Origin: Amoebophrya sp. A120
Taxonomy: Eukaryota > Protista > Dinoflagellata
DNA length: 7,741 nucleotides
Reading direction: 5' to 3'
Assembly: GCA_905178155.1 (NCBI GenBank)
Contig: CAJINV010000026.1
Coordinates: 158,935-166,675, forward strand
Shown here: positions 1 to 7,741 of the stretch, piece by piece
Layout: each line of letters opens with the position of its first letter
Numbering within the stretch: position 1 is the stretch's first letter
Translations under genes and position numbers: made by a program
The notes under the pieces: generated by a model
What the model saw: only the letters and a program-made list of their open reading frames with translations
What the model was told of the DNA's origin: nothing
Database searches by the model: none

Positions 1-1079
1 GGGCGAAATGCCTCGGCTTTCGCTGCTCTCTCGGGTCGTGTCCAGCGGAGACTGGACAAGCCCAAGCCCGGGACCCCTCGCGCGCGTCTCAACGGGGCGA
101 ACTGCCTCGGCTTTCCTTCGCTGCTTTCTTGGGTCGTGTCCAGTGGAGACTGGACAACCCCAAACCCGGGCGCCGGTCCCTGTGTGCGTCTCAACGGGGC
201 GAACTTCCTCGGCTTCCGCTGCTCTCTTGGGTCGTGTCCAGCGGAGACTGGACAACCCCAAGCCCGGGCGTCCTTGTGCGCGTCTCAACGGGGCGAACTG
301 CCTCGGCTTCCGCTGCTTTCTTGGGTCGTGTCCAGCGGAGACTGGACAACCCCAAGCCCGGGCATCCTTGTGCGCGTCTCAACGGGGTGAGCTGCCTCGG
401 CTTTCGCTGCTTTCTTGGATCGTGTCCAGTGGAGACTGGACAGCCCCAAACCCGGGCGCCCGCGCGCGCGTCTCAGCGGGGCGAACTGCCTCGGCTTTCG
501 CTGCTCTCTTGGGTCGCGTCCAGCGGAGACTGGACAACCCCAAGCCCGGGCATCCTTGTGCGCGCCTCAACGGGCGGGGCGAACTGCCTCTGCTTTCGCT
601 GCTTTCTTGGGTCATGTCCGGCGGAGACTGGACAACCCCAAACCCGGGCGCCCGTGTGCGCGTCTCAACGGGGCGAACTTCGTCGGCCCTCGCTGCTCTC
701 TTGGGTCGTGTCCAGCGGAGACTGGGCAACCCCAAGCCCGGGCAACCTTGTGCGCGCCTCAACGGGGCGAGCTGCCTCGGCTTTCGCTGCTTTCTTGGGT
801 CGTGTCCAGTGGAGACTGGACAGCCCCAAACCCGGGCGCCCGTGCGCGCGTCTCAACGGGGCGAGCTGCCTCGGCTTTCGCTGCTCTCTTGGGTCGTGTC
901 CCGCGGAGACTGGACAACCCCACGCCCGGAAGCTCTCGCGCGCGTCCCAGCGGGGCGAACTGCCTCGGCTTTCGCTGTTTTCTTGGGTCGTGTCCAGTGG
1001 GGACTGGACAACCCCAAAGCCGGGCGCCCATGCGCGCTTCTCAACGGGGCGAATTGCCTCAGCCTCGCTGCTCTTCTTG
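1..1079. repeat. Tandem satellite with a 94-bp unit: 11 complete copies plus a partial 12th, probably continuing left of the window
   Basis: The GGG(C/T)GA anchor recurs at 1, 95, 197, 291, 385, 479, 577, 671, 765, 859, 953 and 1047. The period is 94, except two units of 102 and 98 bp that carry small insertions. Approximate consensus: GGGCGAACTGCCTCGGCTTTCGCTGCTYTCTTGGGTCGTGTCCAGYGGAGACTGGACAACCCCAARCCCGGGC...GTGCGCGTCTCAACG. Confidence 0.97.
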
Positions 1080-3005
1080 TGGCTCGTGGCTGGTCGAGAC
1101 GGGGCAGCAAACGCAGTCACGCGAGAGCAACACACTATTGGCTCTTCGCGAGAGGAGAAGACGACCCCGGCCAAGGAATCAACCAGCCGTGTATGACATC
1201 TTGCCCACAACAAAGTGTCCACCGGGAACGTCAACAAGGTAAAACAAAAATTGTCCACGGCCCGCATACAATAGGCACCATGAGCAATCAATAGACATCG
1301 TTTCGCTTCATGCGAGTAAGAACAGCAAGCAATAATACTTTTATAGGCGAAATCACTTTCGCTGTGCACCTTAATACGCTGATAAAACTAGTTTCGTCTG
1401 CAGCTACACAACCCCATCGCTATCTCTTCCACCCTTCCCAATCCTCCCGTCGCCGCTCCGCCTACTCCGTACTGCAGGAACCCGGGCGCGTTCCTCCTCT
1501 CCGGATGACATCACGATCTGATGCCCTTTCCTCCCATCTCCGCTTTGTGGGAGTTGTAACTGCTGCCCACGTTGCTCATTTCCGCAACATCTATACTACT
1601 CCCACGGCGTTCTTCGCGATATTTCGTTGAAAATATGCTTCAATCAGAGAGGGTGCCTCGGCTTGCAGCGGTGCCATCTGCCTCCGCCGTTCCAATATCC
1701 TCTGCAGGTTCTACTTCATCTGCTGCGCCATAACAACGAACGCAGCTGCTCTAGTTAGTGGGCCCGGGGACGTCCCGAACAATTCCCACGCGGCTCGGCC
1801 CAGGAATAAACGGAGCTGGTGTGGGGAGATTGCCAAAGAACCCCAAAAGCGAGACACATCGTCACGCCCCGGGGTGGAAAAAACCCGGCCGGCAGATAGA
1901 ATGCCACCCCCGCTAGCCGCTATCCTCGGTCGCCATGATCATGATGGCTGACAATCATGACATGATCGCCATGCCATGCGGTTACGCTAGGTAGTTGTAA
2001 AGGAGATTTGGCACCTTGAGGAAAACATGTCGAAGGACTTCTCTCCAGAAATACTCAATCATCAGCACTTCCTGCTCGTGATATCACTTCTAGTAACCCC
2101 CTCTCCCTGCAACCAAAACATCGTCGTACCCTCAGAAAGTGGTCCGCTCTACTTTCCTGAGCTCCACAACACTTCACTAGCAAAGACTTGCAGGCAAGCA
2201 ACCTAATCAGGTGGCACAATATTCTTGGCGGGGATATGCGGGCCTGCCCGTGTGGGCGGGAGCATCAGTAACAGAGCAAAACAACACCTGCACGCGGCTG
2301 GGCGGTGAAGCCGCAGCGCGCCGCGCAAAACAATGCCGCACCCTGGCCCGTGCGGGCGCCTGCCAATGCATGCGATGGCTGGCCGTGGCAGGAGAGGTGG
2401 TTTTCGTCCAATGCGTGAGCTGTCGGGACCCCGCGTGCGCGGCGGGCGCGCGCCCTCCGTCCCTGGTAAATCAATAACCAACGCGGAGGACCGCGCACGC
2501 GCGAGAGAAATCTCGCGCCCCCTCTTTGTCATCTTAGCCCACGAGCGAGCTGCTGCGGCAGGGGCCCGCCGGCGTTTGGGCTCGACGCCTTTGGCCTTTG
2601 GCGCTCTTTTCAGAGGACAGGGGCAGGGCCATGCCGTTTACTCTTGTTGTTCTTCCACCATGAGAGTCCCGCGCGCCCGCCGTCGGGCCGCGCCACGGCC
2701 GCAGTGGCTTCGCGGCGCGATTCCGTCAACCCAGCAAGGCCATAAGTTTGACATATCGTTTTGCCTTCCAAGACAACTAGGAGGAACAACAGTGACAGAA
2801 ATATCGCTCTACAGAAGTGCTGAGTACAACAACTTCATCCTCCGCTCTCACACAACACCGTGCTCCATCTTACTTTCTCTCACCCTCTCTGATCCTCATC
2901 TTTCTGAAGGGTTGGCTGTCTATTTCTGCGCTCCTAGAACTTGGACTTCCACCACCTCGCTCCAGAGCTTGGTTGTGAAGTAGAGCAACGGCGAGGATAC
3001 GCGCA

Positions 3006-3059: not shown

Positions 3060-3352
3060 TCTCACTCTTCTGCCGGCGCCAGCCAAATTACTTATCAGCC
3101 TGGTGCCTTGTATGAATTCCGGTTCACGCCAGTATTTTACGTATGAGGAAACAAAACGCGTCCTGTCCACCTGGGACGTCTAAGTTGTACAACTAAAGCA
3201 AAAATTGTACACGCCCTACATTTAGGCTTCGTAGAAAGCAGTGGAGAGGCATCGTCCTAGAGTTGTGCTTAAGCTGAGTAACAGAAACAGCATCAATATC
3301 ACACAGAAAAAAACTGGCAGGTCATTACTATCTATTATATTCATGCGAAAAA

Positions 3353-3880
3353 AGAGGTCTACAGAGGGTCGAAGGGAGGTGGCCGAGAGGTCAAAAAGAG
3401 GTCAAGAGAGGTCAAAAAGAGGTCGACAGAGGTGGAGAGGTGGCGCGGGAGGTCATTCGAGGGGGTGGCCGAGAGGTGGCGCGGGTATAGCCAGCCGAAC
3501 CGTTCACCCTAAAGCCGCGCCTATGGGGGACGGAGGTGGCCGAGAGGGTCCCGAGAGGGTGCGTGAGAGGGGAACAGAGGTGCCGAGAGGTTGCGCGAAT
3601 AAGGGCGAACCTCTCGCGCACCCTCTGGGCCACCTCTCGGCCACCTCTGCAGACCTCTAACGGCGAGTATAGCCGGACTATTAGCAACACCTCTCGGGAG
3701 AGGTCAAAAAGAGGGTCTGCGAGAGGGTCAAAAAAATCCGAATCCCCCCGGCACGCGGCCGATTTTGTTGGGGCTCTTTCATGACGCAGGCCCACACCCT
3801 TTCGCGCTCCCCTCTTTCGCCACCCTCTCGCGCATCCTCTCGCGCACCCTCTCGCGCCACCCTCTCGCGCACCCTCCCGC
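3353..3880. repeat. Degenerate ~11-12-bp GAGAGG(G)T minisatellite in alternating orientations; foldback or MITE-like
   Basis: GAGAGG-type units occur at ~3353-3480, 3533-3592 and 3698-3730. Complementary CCTCTC units occur at 3608-3658, ~3689-3696 and ~3795-3880. There is a perfect 15-bp inverted repeat at 3533-3547/3633-3647 and a 14/15 inverted repeat at 3353-3367/3644-3658. Confidence 0.85.
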
Positions 3881-4104
3881 GCCCCAGTTCTGCTTCGGCA
3901 CCTACGTCGAGGCGGCTTCTCTTCGCCCCCGAGCTTCGCTGTAGCTGCCCCCTGCGCATAGCGCCTGAAGGCGCGGGAAGCGCGCAGGAGGCGGCGCGGG
4001 TTGACATGGCGCAAACCGGCGCCAGTACTTCCTTCGACCTGTCACCCTGTGCGCAAAGCCCTGGCGTTGCGGCCCGATCCGCAAATAGTCCTGCCCCGCC
4101 AAAA

Positions 4105-4140
4105 CAGCCGCGCGCCCCGGCGTCAGCCGGGGCATGGCTG
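4105..4140. other. Strong GC-rich stem-loop at a sharp GC-to-AT compositional boundary
   Basis: GCCCCGGC (4114-4121) - GTCA loop - GCCGGGGC (4126-4133), extended by CAGCC (4105-4109) and GGCTG (4136-4140). It is followed by TTTT on the minus strand. AT-rich sequence begins at 4141. Confidence 0.7.
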
Positions 4141-4706
4141 GTATTTGTAATGCAAAAATAAATAGACAGAAAAAATTGTCATGGGTGGCCCCATAGCATG
4201 CTGTTTCGGATATGCAAAGCAGATTTTTTTGTGTATTTTATGAACCTTGACCAAGCAACAGATAGATCATCTTTGGATGATCGTCTTTGGGTGATCTCTT
4301 CTACCGAATCGGAGGTGTGGAAGAGCCCTAACCAAGCGTGGTGGACTCACCCCATCCGGAGTCGCAACGCAACGACGCACCCAAAGAACCCTACATAAGC
4401 TCCGCGCAATGGAGATGAATTTGGGAACCCTAGCCCACCCCACGCACAGGGCGAGGCGACGACACCTACCGACTTGCGCCTCGAACACCCGGCAAAGAAC
4501 ATCTTGAAAAAACAGCGCGCGCCTATGGGTGGAGGTAGAAGAAGCGGCAATATTCCAGTCTACTCAAACGGAAAAAGTTGAGCTAGCATCATCTACAGGC
4601 GAATACAGCGACCATAGCAAAGAACGAAGCCCCCGGGACGTCCGGAGAAGAAAACATAGGACGTCAGTCACCCATTGCGAACCGCACCCCCTGGCAATCC
4701 GGCTCG

Positions 4707-5483
4707 CTACTTCTTATTGGCGCTGTGGACCTTCCAAGTGGCAGCGACATTAATACCGGCCCACGGCATCTTTTCGCTGAGCTTGCGAACTTCTTCCTCG
4801 GATTCGGGCGGCGAATGGGCATACTTGCAAGAGTTCCCAAACTGACAGGACCCCGACTTGAGATAATTGATGCACATCCCTCCCCCCGAAGCCTTCGGGC
4901 GCTTTGGAGGGGGGCCCCCGCCGTGCACCTTCTCCTTGCTCGCTCGCGCGAGCTGCAGTGCGTCCATCTTGTTGAAGAAAACGGAGGTCAAAAACACCCA
5001 CACCCGCAGGGCGTAGTCTTTTGGCGTGTCAGCCACCGCAGCCGCATCTTCCTCCTCGTATTCGTTCTCCACCACCAAGGATGCCAACTCCTTGAGGCAC
5101 TTGTTAGCGTCAGCGACGACAAAAGGAGACCCGGAAAAGCGTACATAAAGTCCCAGACCCCAGCTATTCGCGAAAGTTACGCGCTTCTCCGCAACAACCA
5201 AAACGGCGGCAGCCATCGACACTAGCTGCTTCAAGTCTGTGATCACCAAGGTGGCACAGCCCCGGCGGCGAACAAGCTTGATCATCGCAAAAAAGACATT
5301 GGCACCCGTGACGACATCAGAGCAGAGGCCCTTTTGCAGGACCACCATCTCGCTATCTTTCTGCTCATCGTTGTGACCCTTGACACACTTGTCAATGAGA
5401 GAGGAAAAACTCGCCAGCAGCTGCTGGTTATCTTGGTCGGCCGCTTGCGCGACCACTGCGCCCTGCCCATCGTCTCCGGCCAT
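4707..5483 (-). CDS. CCCH zinc-finger protein, 258 aa; putative Gag-like or RNA-binding protein of the element
   Basis: Contains C-x8-C-x5-C-x3-H (CINYLKSGSCQFGNSCKYAH, nt 4815-4874), preceded by a Gly/Pro/basic linker with an NLS-like PPPKRPK, and a helical-looking N-terminal region. The first ATG is at 5483 in the context ACAAAATGG; the ORF track starts 3 codons earlier at a TTG. Stop is TAG at 4707-4709. Confidence 0.88.
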   Translation of the reverse strand: MAGDDGQGAVVAQAADQDNQQLLASFSSLIDKCVKGHNDEQKDSEMVVLQKGLCSDVVTGANVFFAMIKLVRRRGCATLVITDLKQLVSMAAAVLVVAEKRVTFANSWGLGLYVRFSGSPFVVADANKCLKELASLVVENEYEEEDAAAVADTPKDYALRVWVFLTSVFFNKMDALQLARASKEKVHGGGPPPKRPKASGGGMCINYLKSGSCQFGNSCKYAHSPPESEEEVRKLSEKMPWAGINVAATWKVHSANKK

Positions 5484-5548
5484 TTTGTTCAAAAAGAGTA
5501 GAAATCCTATCGGGGCGAAAGCCTAGATGATGCAACACGACTGCAAAA

Positions 5549-5572
5549 GTGAGAATCACGGAAGATTCTCAC
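5549..5572. other. Perfect 9+6+9 inverted repeat in the spacer between the two genes
   Basis: GTGAGAATC (5549-5557) - ACGGAA - GATTCTCAC (5564-5572). Confidence 0.8.
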
Positions 5573-5838
5573 ATAAAAATCCCTGGAATTTGGAATGGGG
5601 AAAGACGCATGGACGGCATGGTGAAGAATTCGGCAGAACCCCAAACGCAAGAACGGAATATAAAATATCCAATAGAGCCCTTTCATTTTTTCAAAGACAG
5701 AAAAGATCCCACCCCCTATTTCGAGGCGACTAAAGAACAAAAGCGTGCGGATGGTTCAAATTTTCGACCATAACCCCAGTCGCAGCACTTAATATTTGCA
5801 TTTGACAGAGAGAAAGACCTATGGCAAATCATCAGCAT

Positions 5839-6858
5839 TTATAAAATAGCATGAGAGAGATCAACATCCTGGACCTCCCACAAGCTTTTCACTCTCCCAT
5901 AATAGAGGATCATGACTGGACTGGACCACCTCATGTGGCCCGTAATGTCCAGACTCGGAATTTTTTGCGCTAACAGAGTCAGCAAGAGCCCTATTCTAAG
6001 ACTATGGGTCGTCGTCTCAAATTGGTGCCGTTTCAGAATGGCCTCGACGTCGATGCCTTCACAAAGATCGATGAGACCCCGGTAAGCATGCAGGCAAGAA
6101 AGCTTGCCTTTGTCGCAAGAACAGCGGACCCGCATGGCCTGCACGGCGTTGCTTTTTAATACCGCCCCGCGCAAATCTAACCCGATCGACTTCGTCCCCC
6201 AAAGCACCTTGATCCCCTTGTTAATTTGCTGCGCCTCAGACTTCCGGAGCCCGAACAAAAACACCAGCAGCAACTTCGCGCGGTCTGTCGCGTTAACAAT
6301 TTTCATGATGTCCGAGCGGAAAAGCGGGCTTTTTTGGGTGTGGTTGAAGACGCCCTTGCGTCGCAGGCTCGCCAACAGCGACCAAATAAAACTTTGCTCC
6401 ACTTCGTTCATGGAGAGCTCGCCCTTCTTCCGCGCAGTCTTGAGGATCAGGCTAACATCGTCATCAAAAGTCTTGTATGACGTCACCAAGCAGACCGCCA
6501 CAAAATTCTCCAGGTGGTGGAAAGTGACCGGCCAAGGTTCACCCCCGCTCGCCCTAATAATCCTCTCATACTTCGACACCTGCGAAGCTACAGTGGACCC
6601 CGAAGCCATCGATGTCATCGAGCTCAAAAACTGCACGCACTGTGCTAACGACGCTGGGTCGGAGGCCAAACGGCACGCCGCCGAGAGTTTGGCCGACGTG
6701 CGTGTTTTTCTTCCTGTCGCTGGGTAAGAAATCGGAACCCCAGCCGACTCCTGCAGGATTTTCTCCAGCCTATCTACCGGCTGCTCGCGCGCATTTTCTT
6801 GTTTACTCTTTTGCGCCAACTCTAGTTTTTTGCGATAGCGATTCATGATAGACATCAT
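5839..6858 (-). CDS. Tyrosine recombinase (integrase family, Cre/DIRS-like Trp type), 339 aa
   Basis: Motifs are FLFGLR205KSE, LK235SN, H285SLR288IG and GHMRW311SSPVMILYY320. The H-x2-R, R-to-W (+23) and W-to-Y (+9) spacings equal those of Cre (H289/R292/W315/Y324). The ORF is uninterrupted from ATG 6858 to TAA 5839-5841. Confidence 0.93.
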   Translation of the reverse strand: MMSIMNRYRKKLELAQKSKQENAREQPVDRLEKILQESAGVPISYPATGRKTRTSAKLSAACRLASDPASLAQCVQFLSSMTSMASGSTVASQVSKYERIIRASGGEPWPVTFHHLENFVAVCLVTSYKTFDDDVSLILKTARKKGELSMNEVEQSFIWSLLASLRRKGVFNHTQKSPLFRSDIMKIVNATDRAKLLLVFLFGLRKSEAQQINKGIKVLWGTKSIGLDLRGAVLKSNAVQAMRVRCSCDKGKLSCLHAYRGLIDLCEGIDVEAILKRHQFETTTHSLRIGLLLTLLAQKIPSLDITGHMRWSSPVMILYYGRVKSLWEVQDVDLSHAIL

Positions 6859-6964
6859 CTTGTGGTAAACACCCCGGAGGCACAGAGAGCACCCTAGGAA
6901 AAGACCAGAAAAAGGCGTATATGCAGTCCCTCCGAATAAACAAAATCAAAAACTCTATGTCCCT

Positions 6965-7734
6965 CTAGCAGCTAGTCTCGAACTAGCACAGACCTGTGGG
7001 AAAAGGAGAAAATGGCACTGACTCGATCAAGCTCAGGATCGAGAAAACACTAACTGGAACTGCCCGGCAGAGGCAAAATTTTTCGATCACTGACCCTACA
7101 CTAGTCTTCGTTTTCCATCTTGCTTAGGTTCAGCACATTGATCTCACCCAAAAAACAAAAATATGGCAAAACATAAATCAACCCCCCCAGCGCTCGCCTC
7201 CCTGCGCTCGTCCTCTCTTAGGTTTAACGGGTTGGTTACCGCCAGTGCCACAGAGCCGAACCAGAGCAAGATGGAAAACAACCAGGGTCAGTGATCGGAC
7301 AACCCAAATCACTAATGATTGGCACACCCAATCATCTCTCACCACATTCTCGTCGGAGCAGCTAGCGCCGCTGCTCCGAAGTGGTACAACATCAAAAACA
7401 ACCAGCCAGGGAAGCGCCAGCGTTCCTCTGCCAACTGGCCCAACACACAGTCCCGCATGGACAAATCAGAAAGCCCCTGCATCCCCCAGACGACAACACG
7501 TCTCCTGAGTAAAAAGATGCAGATATCAACATGCTACCATCGGCAGGGGCGCGACTCCCTGAAAACACGAAGAGACTTCCACGACAGCAAAACCACAAAA
7601 CAGTAGTCGTTTGCTGCGCAAGTTTCTCTACGGTTTTGGTTACCGTAACGGGTGGGGATCTTCGTACATAAAATATTGACCGACCATCCTCGGCCTTGAC
7701 TCACAGGCTCGCAAGACCTGCTGGTGCTCGGTCA
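6965..7734. ncRNA. Putative large structured RNA or structured leader upstream of the recombinase; strand and limits unknown
   Basis: A dense series of perfect stems plus the long-range inverted repeat, with no credible ORF. Stems include 6971-6987, 7022-7043, 7315-7335, 7353-7379, 7473-7480/7543-7550, 7585-7616 and 7677-7734. It matches no RNA family I recognise. Confidence 0.5.
7084..7297. repeat. Bipartite long-range inverted repeat
   Basis: CGATCACTGACCCT (7084-7097) is the exact reverse complement of 7284-7297 (14 bp). GTTTTCCATCTTGCT (7110-7124) is the exact reverse complement of 7265-7279 (15 bp). There is an imperfect extension at 7125-7134/7255-7264. Confidence 0.92.
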
Positions 7735-7741
7735 TACATTT

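What the first reader, a model, noticed from the sequence alone, without database searches (positions are those of the whole stretch)
4141..7741. Candidate new element: tyrosine recombinase, CCCH zinc-finger protein and long structured non-coding flanks, with no reverse transcriptase in view
Seen: two intact co-oriented ORFs in the order YR then CCCH protein, with ~880 nt of hairpin-dense non-coding DNA upstream, ~560 nt downstream, and no RT/RNase H ORF or remnant that I could detect. Established: eukaryotic YR elements include retrotransposons (DIRS, Ngaro, PAT, VIPER), where a Gag-like ORF normally comes first and RT-RH is present, and DNA transposons (Cryptons), which lack Gag and RT. CCCH fingers typically bind RNA. 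Inference: this layout fits neither class cleanly. It could be an RT-less element mobilised in trans, a circularly permuted or rearranged DIRS/Ngaro-like element, or a YR system that uses a structured RNA bound by the CCCH protein.
Basis: partly seen in the sequence, partly recalled or inferred. Interest (0 to 1): 0.82.

Follow-up and report, generated by a model that had tools for sequence, protein, structure and literature searches.

The report
Recombinase-only transposon with zinc-finger partner
A 3.5-kb mobile element, likely from the marine parasite Amoebophrya, carries a tyrosine recombinase gene and a zinc-finger gene but no reverse transcriptase, has the same four bases at each end, and shows its two ends joined in sequencing data, so it likely moves as a DNA circle like Crypton transposons, helped by a predicted RNA-binding partner.

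Summary
The two genes are real (tyrosine recombinase, then CCCH protein, minus strand) and no RT was found. The element is 4235-7741: ATTT stands at both ends but once in other copies of the host repeat, a 12/14 inverted repeat lies just inside the ends, and contigs of two runs of one sample join 7737 to 4235 across ATTT. About 25 related right ends end at the same core. No LTR or split repeat exists inside. The YR-then-CCCH pair recurs in Amoebophrya gene models and a transcript. Best reading: a Crypton-like DNA transposon with its own recombinase clade and a conserved second gene (0.65). The join may be a free circle or a chromosomal tandem; contigs cannot tell. The upstream flank is folded beyond chance (z -3.7), the downstream one is not (z +0.35), and nothing shows the folds act as RNA. 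An RT-less element moved through RNA remains possible (0.15). The scan had not noted this element on other DNA; no paper found describes it.

The parts
4235..7741 (-). Whole YR-CCCH element, 3503 bp plus the duplicated 4-bp core
   Evidence: Joint 7737 to 4235 with 4 shared letters in runs X1 and X2; host repeat resumes after 4238 in other copies (table 7)
4235..4238 (+). Left ATTT core (terminal direct repeat, predicted crossover site)
7738..7741 (+). Right ATTT core; the window ends on its last base
   Evidence: 8 of 8 shown loose-end rows behind 7712-7718 carry ATTT in register
4248..4261 (+). Left arm of a 12/14 subterminal inverted repeat (predicted recombinase binding site)
   Evidence: 30 of 5000 random pairs and 26 of 5000 shuffles score as high
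7721..7734 (-). Right arm of the subterminal inverted repeat
5839..6855 (-). Tyrosine recombinase ORF, 338 aa; R204, K234, H284, R287, H307, W310, Y319 and a C245/C247/C254 cluster invariant in 14 of 14 close relatives
   Evidence: the reading of these residues as the catalytic set is recalled YR knowledge
4707..5483 (-). Second ORF, 258 aa: predicted helical N-terminal region of no known family, one CCCH finger near residues 204-225
5484..5838 (-). Intergenic spacer, 355 nt, unstructured; spacing similar to that in an Amoebophrya read-through transcript (393 versus 454 nt from the YR HxRW motif to the second ATG)
7079..7302 (.). Long imperfect inverted repeat (stem) in the upstream flank
7210..7314 (.). 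Non-coding block kept at about 90% in diverged family members and in another sample
   Evidence: table 8 (records 5, 11, 23)
7667..7741 (.). Conserved right-terminal block; summed depth about 25 times single copy
4142..4238 (.). Inner part of the host repeat (introner/MITE-like, depth about 1100-1400 times single copy) into which the element is inserted; not part of the element
3297..3330 (.). Outer left arm of the host repeat, starting TAT-N7-AAA as worded for A120 introners
   Evidence: (diverse flanks before 3297 in 27 and 26 contigs), PMC7789003

Best explanation
This is a 3.5-kb reverse-transcriptase-free element with ATTT at both ends and a head-to-tail join in sequencing contigs, likely a Crypton-like DNA transposon whose own tyrosine recombinase would cut it out as a circle and insert it at AT-rich ATTT sites. 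Shown: the two genes, the ends, the insertion into a host repeat, the join, and diverged relatives in the same sample. Inferred: the recombinase binds the short inverted motifs inside the ends and exchanges strands in or beside the 4-bp core; a circle can also insert next to a resident copy, giving tandems; many of the roughly 25 related right ends are shorter non-autonomous copies. Inferred, weakest step: the CCCH protein is a dedicated accessory that binds the element's own two-gene transcript, likely in the folded upstream region, and controls recombinase output.
For: Ends: ATTT twice in the window, once in other copies of the host repeat, where 14 (X1) and 19 (X2) contigs run straight on into the repeat's right arm. 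Join 7737 to 4235 in 2 of 4 runs laid (X1, X2, one sample); X1 holds a 3533-nt closed loop. Family ends: 8 of 8 shown loose-end rows behind 7712-7718 reach ATTT, 7 of 8 through CATAC, then diverge; 5 of 8 go on with TA like the element's own left end (43 loose-end rows not shown). No LTR, split repeat or internal copy of the join. Cre-like fold and intact motifs. No RT family in 39 plus 21 YR relatives and partner proteins. Relatives in the same runs are collinear between the YR gene and the right end (records of 2637 and 2967 nt). Pair conserved: consecutive gene models g7586 and g7585, a model fusing both, and a read-through transcript in Amoebophrya. 10 of 16 listed YR differences fall at third codon positions (p 0.016). 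Crypton ends and circle model: PMC3212892; clean excision and 5-bp core in an active Crypton: PMC9977147.
Against: No free circle is shown: body depth equals single-copy depth (ratio 0.96 and 0.97), and a relative with a near-identical left 240 bp is in the same sample, so the join may be a chromosomal tandem. Neither the window's own left junction nor a right junction appears in the listed contigs (0 records run over the ends); I infer graph pruning next to the high-copy repeat, untested. All join evidence for this copy comes from one sample, possibly the window's source. No tree with named Crypton or DIRS recombinases was possible, and no relative hit the Crypton-linked DUF3504 or GCR1_C families. 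Gene pairing is shown only in Amoebophrya; the two metagenome loci fetched (L001, L002) show no CCCH partner, L001 ending about 240 nt after the YR gene and L002 about 550 nt. The CCCH role is untested.
Confidence: 0.65

Rival explanations
1. An RT-less derivative of a DIRS-order retroelement that still moves through RNA: the CCCH protein acts like Gag on the folded transcript, an RT from another element copies it, and the element's own recombinase inserts the circle.
For: CCCH fingers bind RNA (established knowledge); upstream flank folded beyond chance; both ORFs lack introns; a transcript spans both genes in another strain; the YR is Cre-like and PF00589-like as for DIRS-order YRs (PMC6681497; PMC8547959); unchecked scan notes place YR retrotransposons in this genome.
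Against: No terminal redundancy inside the unit, which Ngaro, PAT and VIPER have; second gene lies after the YR, not first; finger is CCCH, not the CX2CX4HX4C box given for Gag; folds score alike on both strands and the long stem has 2 G-U-type mismatches on each strand; downstream flank unstructured.
Confidence: 0.15
2. The window holds only part of a larger element, with split repeats or an RT gene beyond 7741; the join is the internal B-A junction of such an element.
For: The window stops at the core and the right flank is unseen; the 268-nt join record has depth 79.4, which fits two copies of both terminal blocks.
Against: The repeat order would be the mirror image of A1-ORFs-B1A2B2 relative to transcription; the second left end runs on into a diverged CCCH gene, not into a right end (records 2 and 9); related right ends diverge after ATTT.
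Confidence: 0.08
3. A plasmid-like circle that replicates on its own at about one copy per genome and integrates only at times; the long stem would be its origin.
For: X1 assembles the element as one closed loop and no integrated junction is listed; two assemblies of one relative are 3123 and 3155 nt long.
Against: No replication gene; depth matches single-copy chromosomal DNA in both runs; the window shows it integrated; four scans of viral contigs gave nothing.
Confidence: 0.07
4. A domesticated or immobile host gene pair.
For: The pair is kept across Amoebophrya strains at about 50% (YR) and 25% (CCCH) identity and is transcribed in one.
Against: It interrupts a high-copy repeat at a precise core, has many related ends and several diverged copies.
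Confidence: 0.05

Closest known systems
Crypton DNA transposons (CryptonF, S, A, I; PMC3212892; active CryptonF-1_cRei, PMC9977147)
   Same: YR as the only enzyme; no RT; no long terminal repeats; 4-6-bp terminal direct repeat used as target; proposed circular intermediate; more numerous short derivatives; some CryptonS carry a second ORF.
   Different: Second gene is a CCCH-finger protein, not a C48 peptidase; no GCR1_C or DUF3504 hit; Cre-like YR with a cysteine cluster; short subterminal inverted repeat and a long folded upstream flank; host is likely a syndinian dinoflagellate.
DIRS-order YR retrotransposons (Ngaro, PAT, VIPER/TATE, SymbioDIRS; PMC6681497, PMC8547959, PMC5890265, PMC3783388)
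   Same: Cre-like, PF00589-type YR with HxxR and RW...Y motifs; a second ORF with a zinc finger.
   Different: No RT-RH; no split direct repeats or inverted LTRs with internal copy; zinc-finger ORF lies after the YR and is CCCH, not CCHC.
Bacterial conjugative-transposon integrases (Tn1549) and Cre
   Same: Fold of the recombinase; excision to a circle and AT-rich targets (recalled for Tn916/Tn1549).
   Different: About 13% identity; no 13-8-13 lox-type site; no relative confirmed in prokaryotic genome contigs, best plasmid matches only E 0.02.
Amoebophrya introner elements (PMC7789003, PMC12130899)
   Same: Inverted repeats with a 3-5-nt direct repeat at the ends; the element sits inside a repeat with the A120 TAT-N7-AAA start.
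   Different: The element shares only the TAT triplet, not the A-run; no evidence that this YR moves introners.

Membership tests
Crypton | Tyrosine recombinase with intact catalytic residues as sole transposition enzyme | tested here: met
   no other enzyme family
Crypton | No RT | tested here: met
   collinear relatives
Crypton | 4-6-bp terminal direct repeat, single copy at the empty site; no long direct repeats or TIRs | tested here: met
   empty site seen in paralogous copies of the host repeat, not at this locus; a 14-bp imperfect subterminal inverted repeat is present
Crypton | Extrachromosomal circular intermediate | tested here: inconclusive
   Join seen; circle versus tandem unresolved
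Crypton | YR groups with a described Crypton lineage | not testable with these tools
Ngaro/PAT/VIPER retrotransposons | RT-RH ORF | tested here: not met
Ngaro/PAT/VIPER retrotransposons | Split direct repeats A1-ORFs-B1A2B2 | tested here: not met
   sequence beyond 7741 not seen
Ngaro/PAT/VIPER retrotransposons | Gag-like ORF first, at times with a CX2CX4HX4C box | tested here: not met
   Second ORF follows the YR and has a CCCH finger; no fold match, model unreliable
DIRS1-like retrotransposons | Inverted terminal repeats with an internal complementary region (recalled feature) | tested here: not met
   which included the join
TIR/DDE transposon carrying a YR (Tec-like, or the hAT-YR elements noted in this genome) | Long TIRs and a DDE transposase | tested here: not met

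The most novel reading that the evidence does not exclude
A half-autonomous element between Cryptons and YR retrotransposons: it keeps its own recombinase and a CCCH RNA-binding protein, packages its folded transcript, borrows a reverse transcriptase from other elements and integrates the resulting circle, preferring introner copies as targets.
Probability: 0.15. Interest if true: 0.82.

Novelty: new variant of a known kind. Interest (0 to 1): 0.52.

Why it matters
The Crypton circle was proposed by analogy (PMC3212892), and copy gain in the one active case described is unexplained (PMC9977147). Here is a compact, intact element with exact ends and a visible head-to-tail join, so one PCR or long-read run can test the circle, and a two-gene construct can test the recombinase. 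A conserved RNA-binding-type partner beside an RT-free YR also bears on the proposal that YR retrotransposons arose from a Crypton plus RT-RH (cited in PMC6681497). It adds a recombinase-based mobile element to a genome whose intron invasion lacks a known mobiliser, though no link to introner movement was shown.

Tried and rejected
No whole genome was available, so copies, the right flank and this locus's empty site could not be read. No RNA holder was listed; raw RNA runs X4 (0 reads) and X5 (632 reads, host repeat only) did not cover the element, which is no evidence on expression. X3 and X7 covered 11 and 10 of 30 bins and showed no 7737-4235 join. CCCH protein: single-sequence search 0 hits; profile search returned only P0006; Atlas hits for the N-terminal part at 0.93 without a shared family; model pLDDT 49 and no fold match. 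YR profile against PDB sequences: nothing below E 0.3. Viral contigs: four scans, nothing; prokaryotic contigs: 0 of 55 candidates; metagenome contigs: 2 of 96, neither showing a CCCH partner. Rfam: 3 matches, all far below gathering score, none in the flanks. 120-nt folding windows: 2 of 57 below z -2.5, neither in the flanks. Tree of 39 rows (quick tree only, fragments and the longer fusion P0008 left out): the window's YR groups with P0004 and the Amoebophrya proteins, but there is no named outgroup. Literature: Amoebophrya + tyrosine recombinase, YR + CCCH + transposon, DIRS/Ngaro + CCCH, Crypton + dinoflagellate, DIRS lacking RT gave no description of this element; PMC7789003 has 0 occurrences of 'recombinase' or 'Crypton' in its main text. 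My recollection that a DIRS-order Gag carries CCCH was not borne out in the passages read. I rejected 'YR mobilises the introners' for want of shared end motifs beyond TAT.
Full report
Observation. The minus strand holds a 338-aa ORF (5839-6855) followed, after 355 nt, by a 258-aa ORF (4707-5483). The first has no Pfam hit, but an AlphaFold model from a 39-row alignment (mean pLDDT 87) has Cre recombinase chains as its top Foldseek matches, E 2e-4 at about 13% identity. In 14 close relatives R204, K234, H284, R287, H307, W310 and Y319 and three cysteines are invariant, and 8 of 39 relatives hit Phage_integrase at E<=0.1. The second ORF has one CCCH finger (PF00642, E 5e-8) behind a predicted helical region of no known family. 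No RT family appeared in 15 other ORFs of the 73 listed and no [YF][LVIAMG]DD motif in six frames of the element. The upstream flank folds better than shuffles (z -3.74), owing to a stem at 7079-7302 and to 7311-7741; both strands score alike and the stem's mismatches show no G-U bias. The downstream flank is not structured (z +0.35).

Host. The named relatives are all from Amoebophrya: P0003, P0005-P0008 and P0044 from strains AT5.2 and Ameob2, and P0016, a 67%-identical fragment from A120. The rest of the 54 hits that I looked up are unnamed metagenome or run-assembly proteins (20 looked up). The host repeat starts TAT-N7-AAA at 3297, the wording given for A120 introner repeats (PMC7789003). 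So the organism is likely an Amoebophrya; this is inference.

Ends. Laying public contigs gave the boundaries. In runs X1 and X2 (one sample) 7737 joins 4235 with four shared letters, ATTT, which stand at 4235-4238 and 7738-7741; X1 holds a closed 3533-nt loop. The stretch 4142-4238 is a repeat at about 1100-1400 times single-copy depth, and in 14 and 19 contigs it runs on after 4238 straight into its own right arm, so the core is single without the element. A 12/14 inverted repeat lies at 4248-4261 and 7721-7734 (30 of 5000 random pairs score as high). The last 100 nt have about 25 times single-copy depth; all 8 shown loose-end rows there reach ATTT in register and then differ, 5 continuing with TA like the element's left end and 3 with A like the host repeat (43 loose-end rows not shown; only 2-8 letters are visible past the core). 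No LTR, split repeat or internal copy of the join exists inside the element.

Family. The same runs hold diverged relatives on records of 412, 1915, 2637 and 2967 nt; spacing between YR gene and right end matches the window to within about 100 nt, leaving no room for an RT there. Ten of 16 listed YR differences are at third codon positions (p 0.016); 6 of 11 for the CCCH gene (p 0.12); these come from 40 of 63 rows. In AT5.2 the YR (g7586) and the CCCH homologue (g7585, 25% identical, E 2e-20) have consecutive numbers, a second model (g18990) fuses them in the order YR-CCCH, and one transcript-derived protein reads through both. Outside Amoebophrya the pairing is not shown: L001 and L002 have no CCCH match and end soon after the gene.

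Circle or tandem. The body has single-copy depth (0.96 and 0.97 of a unique neighbour), and the 268-nt join record at depth 79.4 fits several models with join depth anywhere from 0.1 to 1 (assuming 31-letter words). A relative shares the left 240 nt almost unchanged, so a chromosomal head-to-tail pair explains the contigs without free circles. For a mixture of forms: the window stops exactly on the core, where reads would fork if both an integrated right end and a join exist; this assumes the window's end is an assembly break. Neither integrated junction is among the listed contigs, which I attribute, untested, to pruning beside the high-copy repeat. I put free circles at about even odds. Either form is what a recombinase acting at the ATTT core would make.

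Mechanism. Best reading (0.65): a Crypton-like DNA transposon. Shown: genes, ends, insertion, join, family. Inferred: YR binds the inverted motifs, exchanges strands at the core, releases a circle and inserts it at ATTT sites; shorter copies borrow the enzyme. Least supported: the CCCH protein binds the element's own transcript and controls recombinase output. Rivals: RNA route with a borrowed RT (0.15), part of a larger element (0.08), self-replicating episome (0.07), immobile host genes (0.05).

Comparison with print. PMC3212892 (passages): Cryptons have no TIRs or long repeats, 4- or 6-bp terminal direct repeats, a proposed circle, and in some CryptonS a second, peptidase ORF. PMC9977147 (passages): an active Crypton ends in CACCG, targets CAYCG, excises cleanly and gains copies. 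PMC6681497 (passages), PMC8547959, PMC5890265, PMC3783388: DIRS-order elements have RT-RH and split or inverted repeats; none of the passages read gives a CCCH Gag. PMC7789003 (passages) does not mention recombinases or Cryptons in its main text; its supplement was not searched. PMC12130899 (passages; 12 of 14 supplementary files searched): two A120 introner families had automatic Crypton labels but were finally classed as TIR DNA; files 13 and 14 were not searched and may bear on this. PMC10799480 (passages) was irrelevant. Goodwin 2003 and Poulter and Butler 2015 were seen only as cited. Searches found no description of a YR-CCCH element; the library lacks most subscription papers and Repbase.

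Verdict. It works like a Crypton and meets the structural criteria tested, but descent from a described Crypton lineage could not be tested, so I file it as a new variant of a known kind: a distinct YR clade with a conserved CCCH partner. Interest 0.52.

Noticed in passing
window 3331-4141: 811-bp high-copy insert inside the same host repeat; begins TC after an A, ends with a G+C hairpin and CTGG before a T, which I recall as Helitron-type ends. Contigs skip it (joints near 3324 to 4142). It holds internal GAGAGG/CCTCTC repeats.
   Followed up: partly
window 3297-4238: An introner/MITE-like repeat hosts two different insertions, one in each arm region; its right arm is missing from the window.
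   Followed up: partly
window 1-1088: Tandem array of a 94-bp unit, 11.4 copies, 84% matches, several-fold above single-copy depth in contigs.
   Followed up: no
window 1215-1325 and 3163-3290: Diverged direct repeat of about 110-130 nt, about 1950 nt apart, ending just before the host repeat; may be the ends of an older element.
   Followed up: partly
window 4355-4428: Five places where contigs of X2 (three in X1, four in X7) differ from the window; likely a second copy of the left end, or errors in the window.
   Followed up: partly
L002 276-1430: A second, distant lone tyrosine-recombinase-like ORF with no RT-sized ORF beside it; a motif of about 29 nt occurs three times in the contig (near 132, 1825 and 3080), the first two flanking this ORF.
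   Followed up: no
P0034: A distant relative of the YR carries a weak C-terminal zf-CW match (E 0.003), so this clade may pick up other reader domains.
   Followed up: no
P0061, P0062, P0011, P0021: YR relatives on contigs of 3123, 3155, 3238 and 3475 nt, near the element's unit length; 4 of the 12 members listed, the rest on shorter contigs.
   Followed up: no
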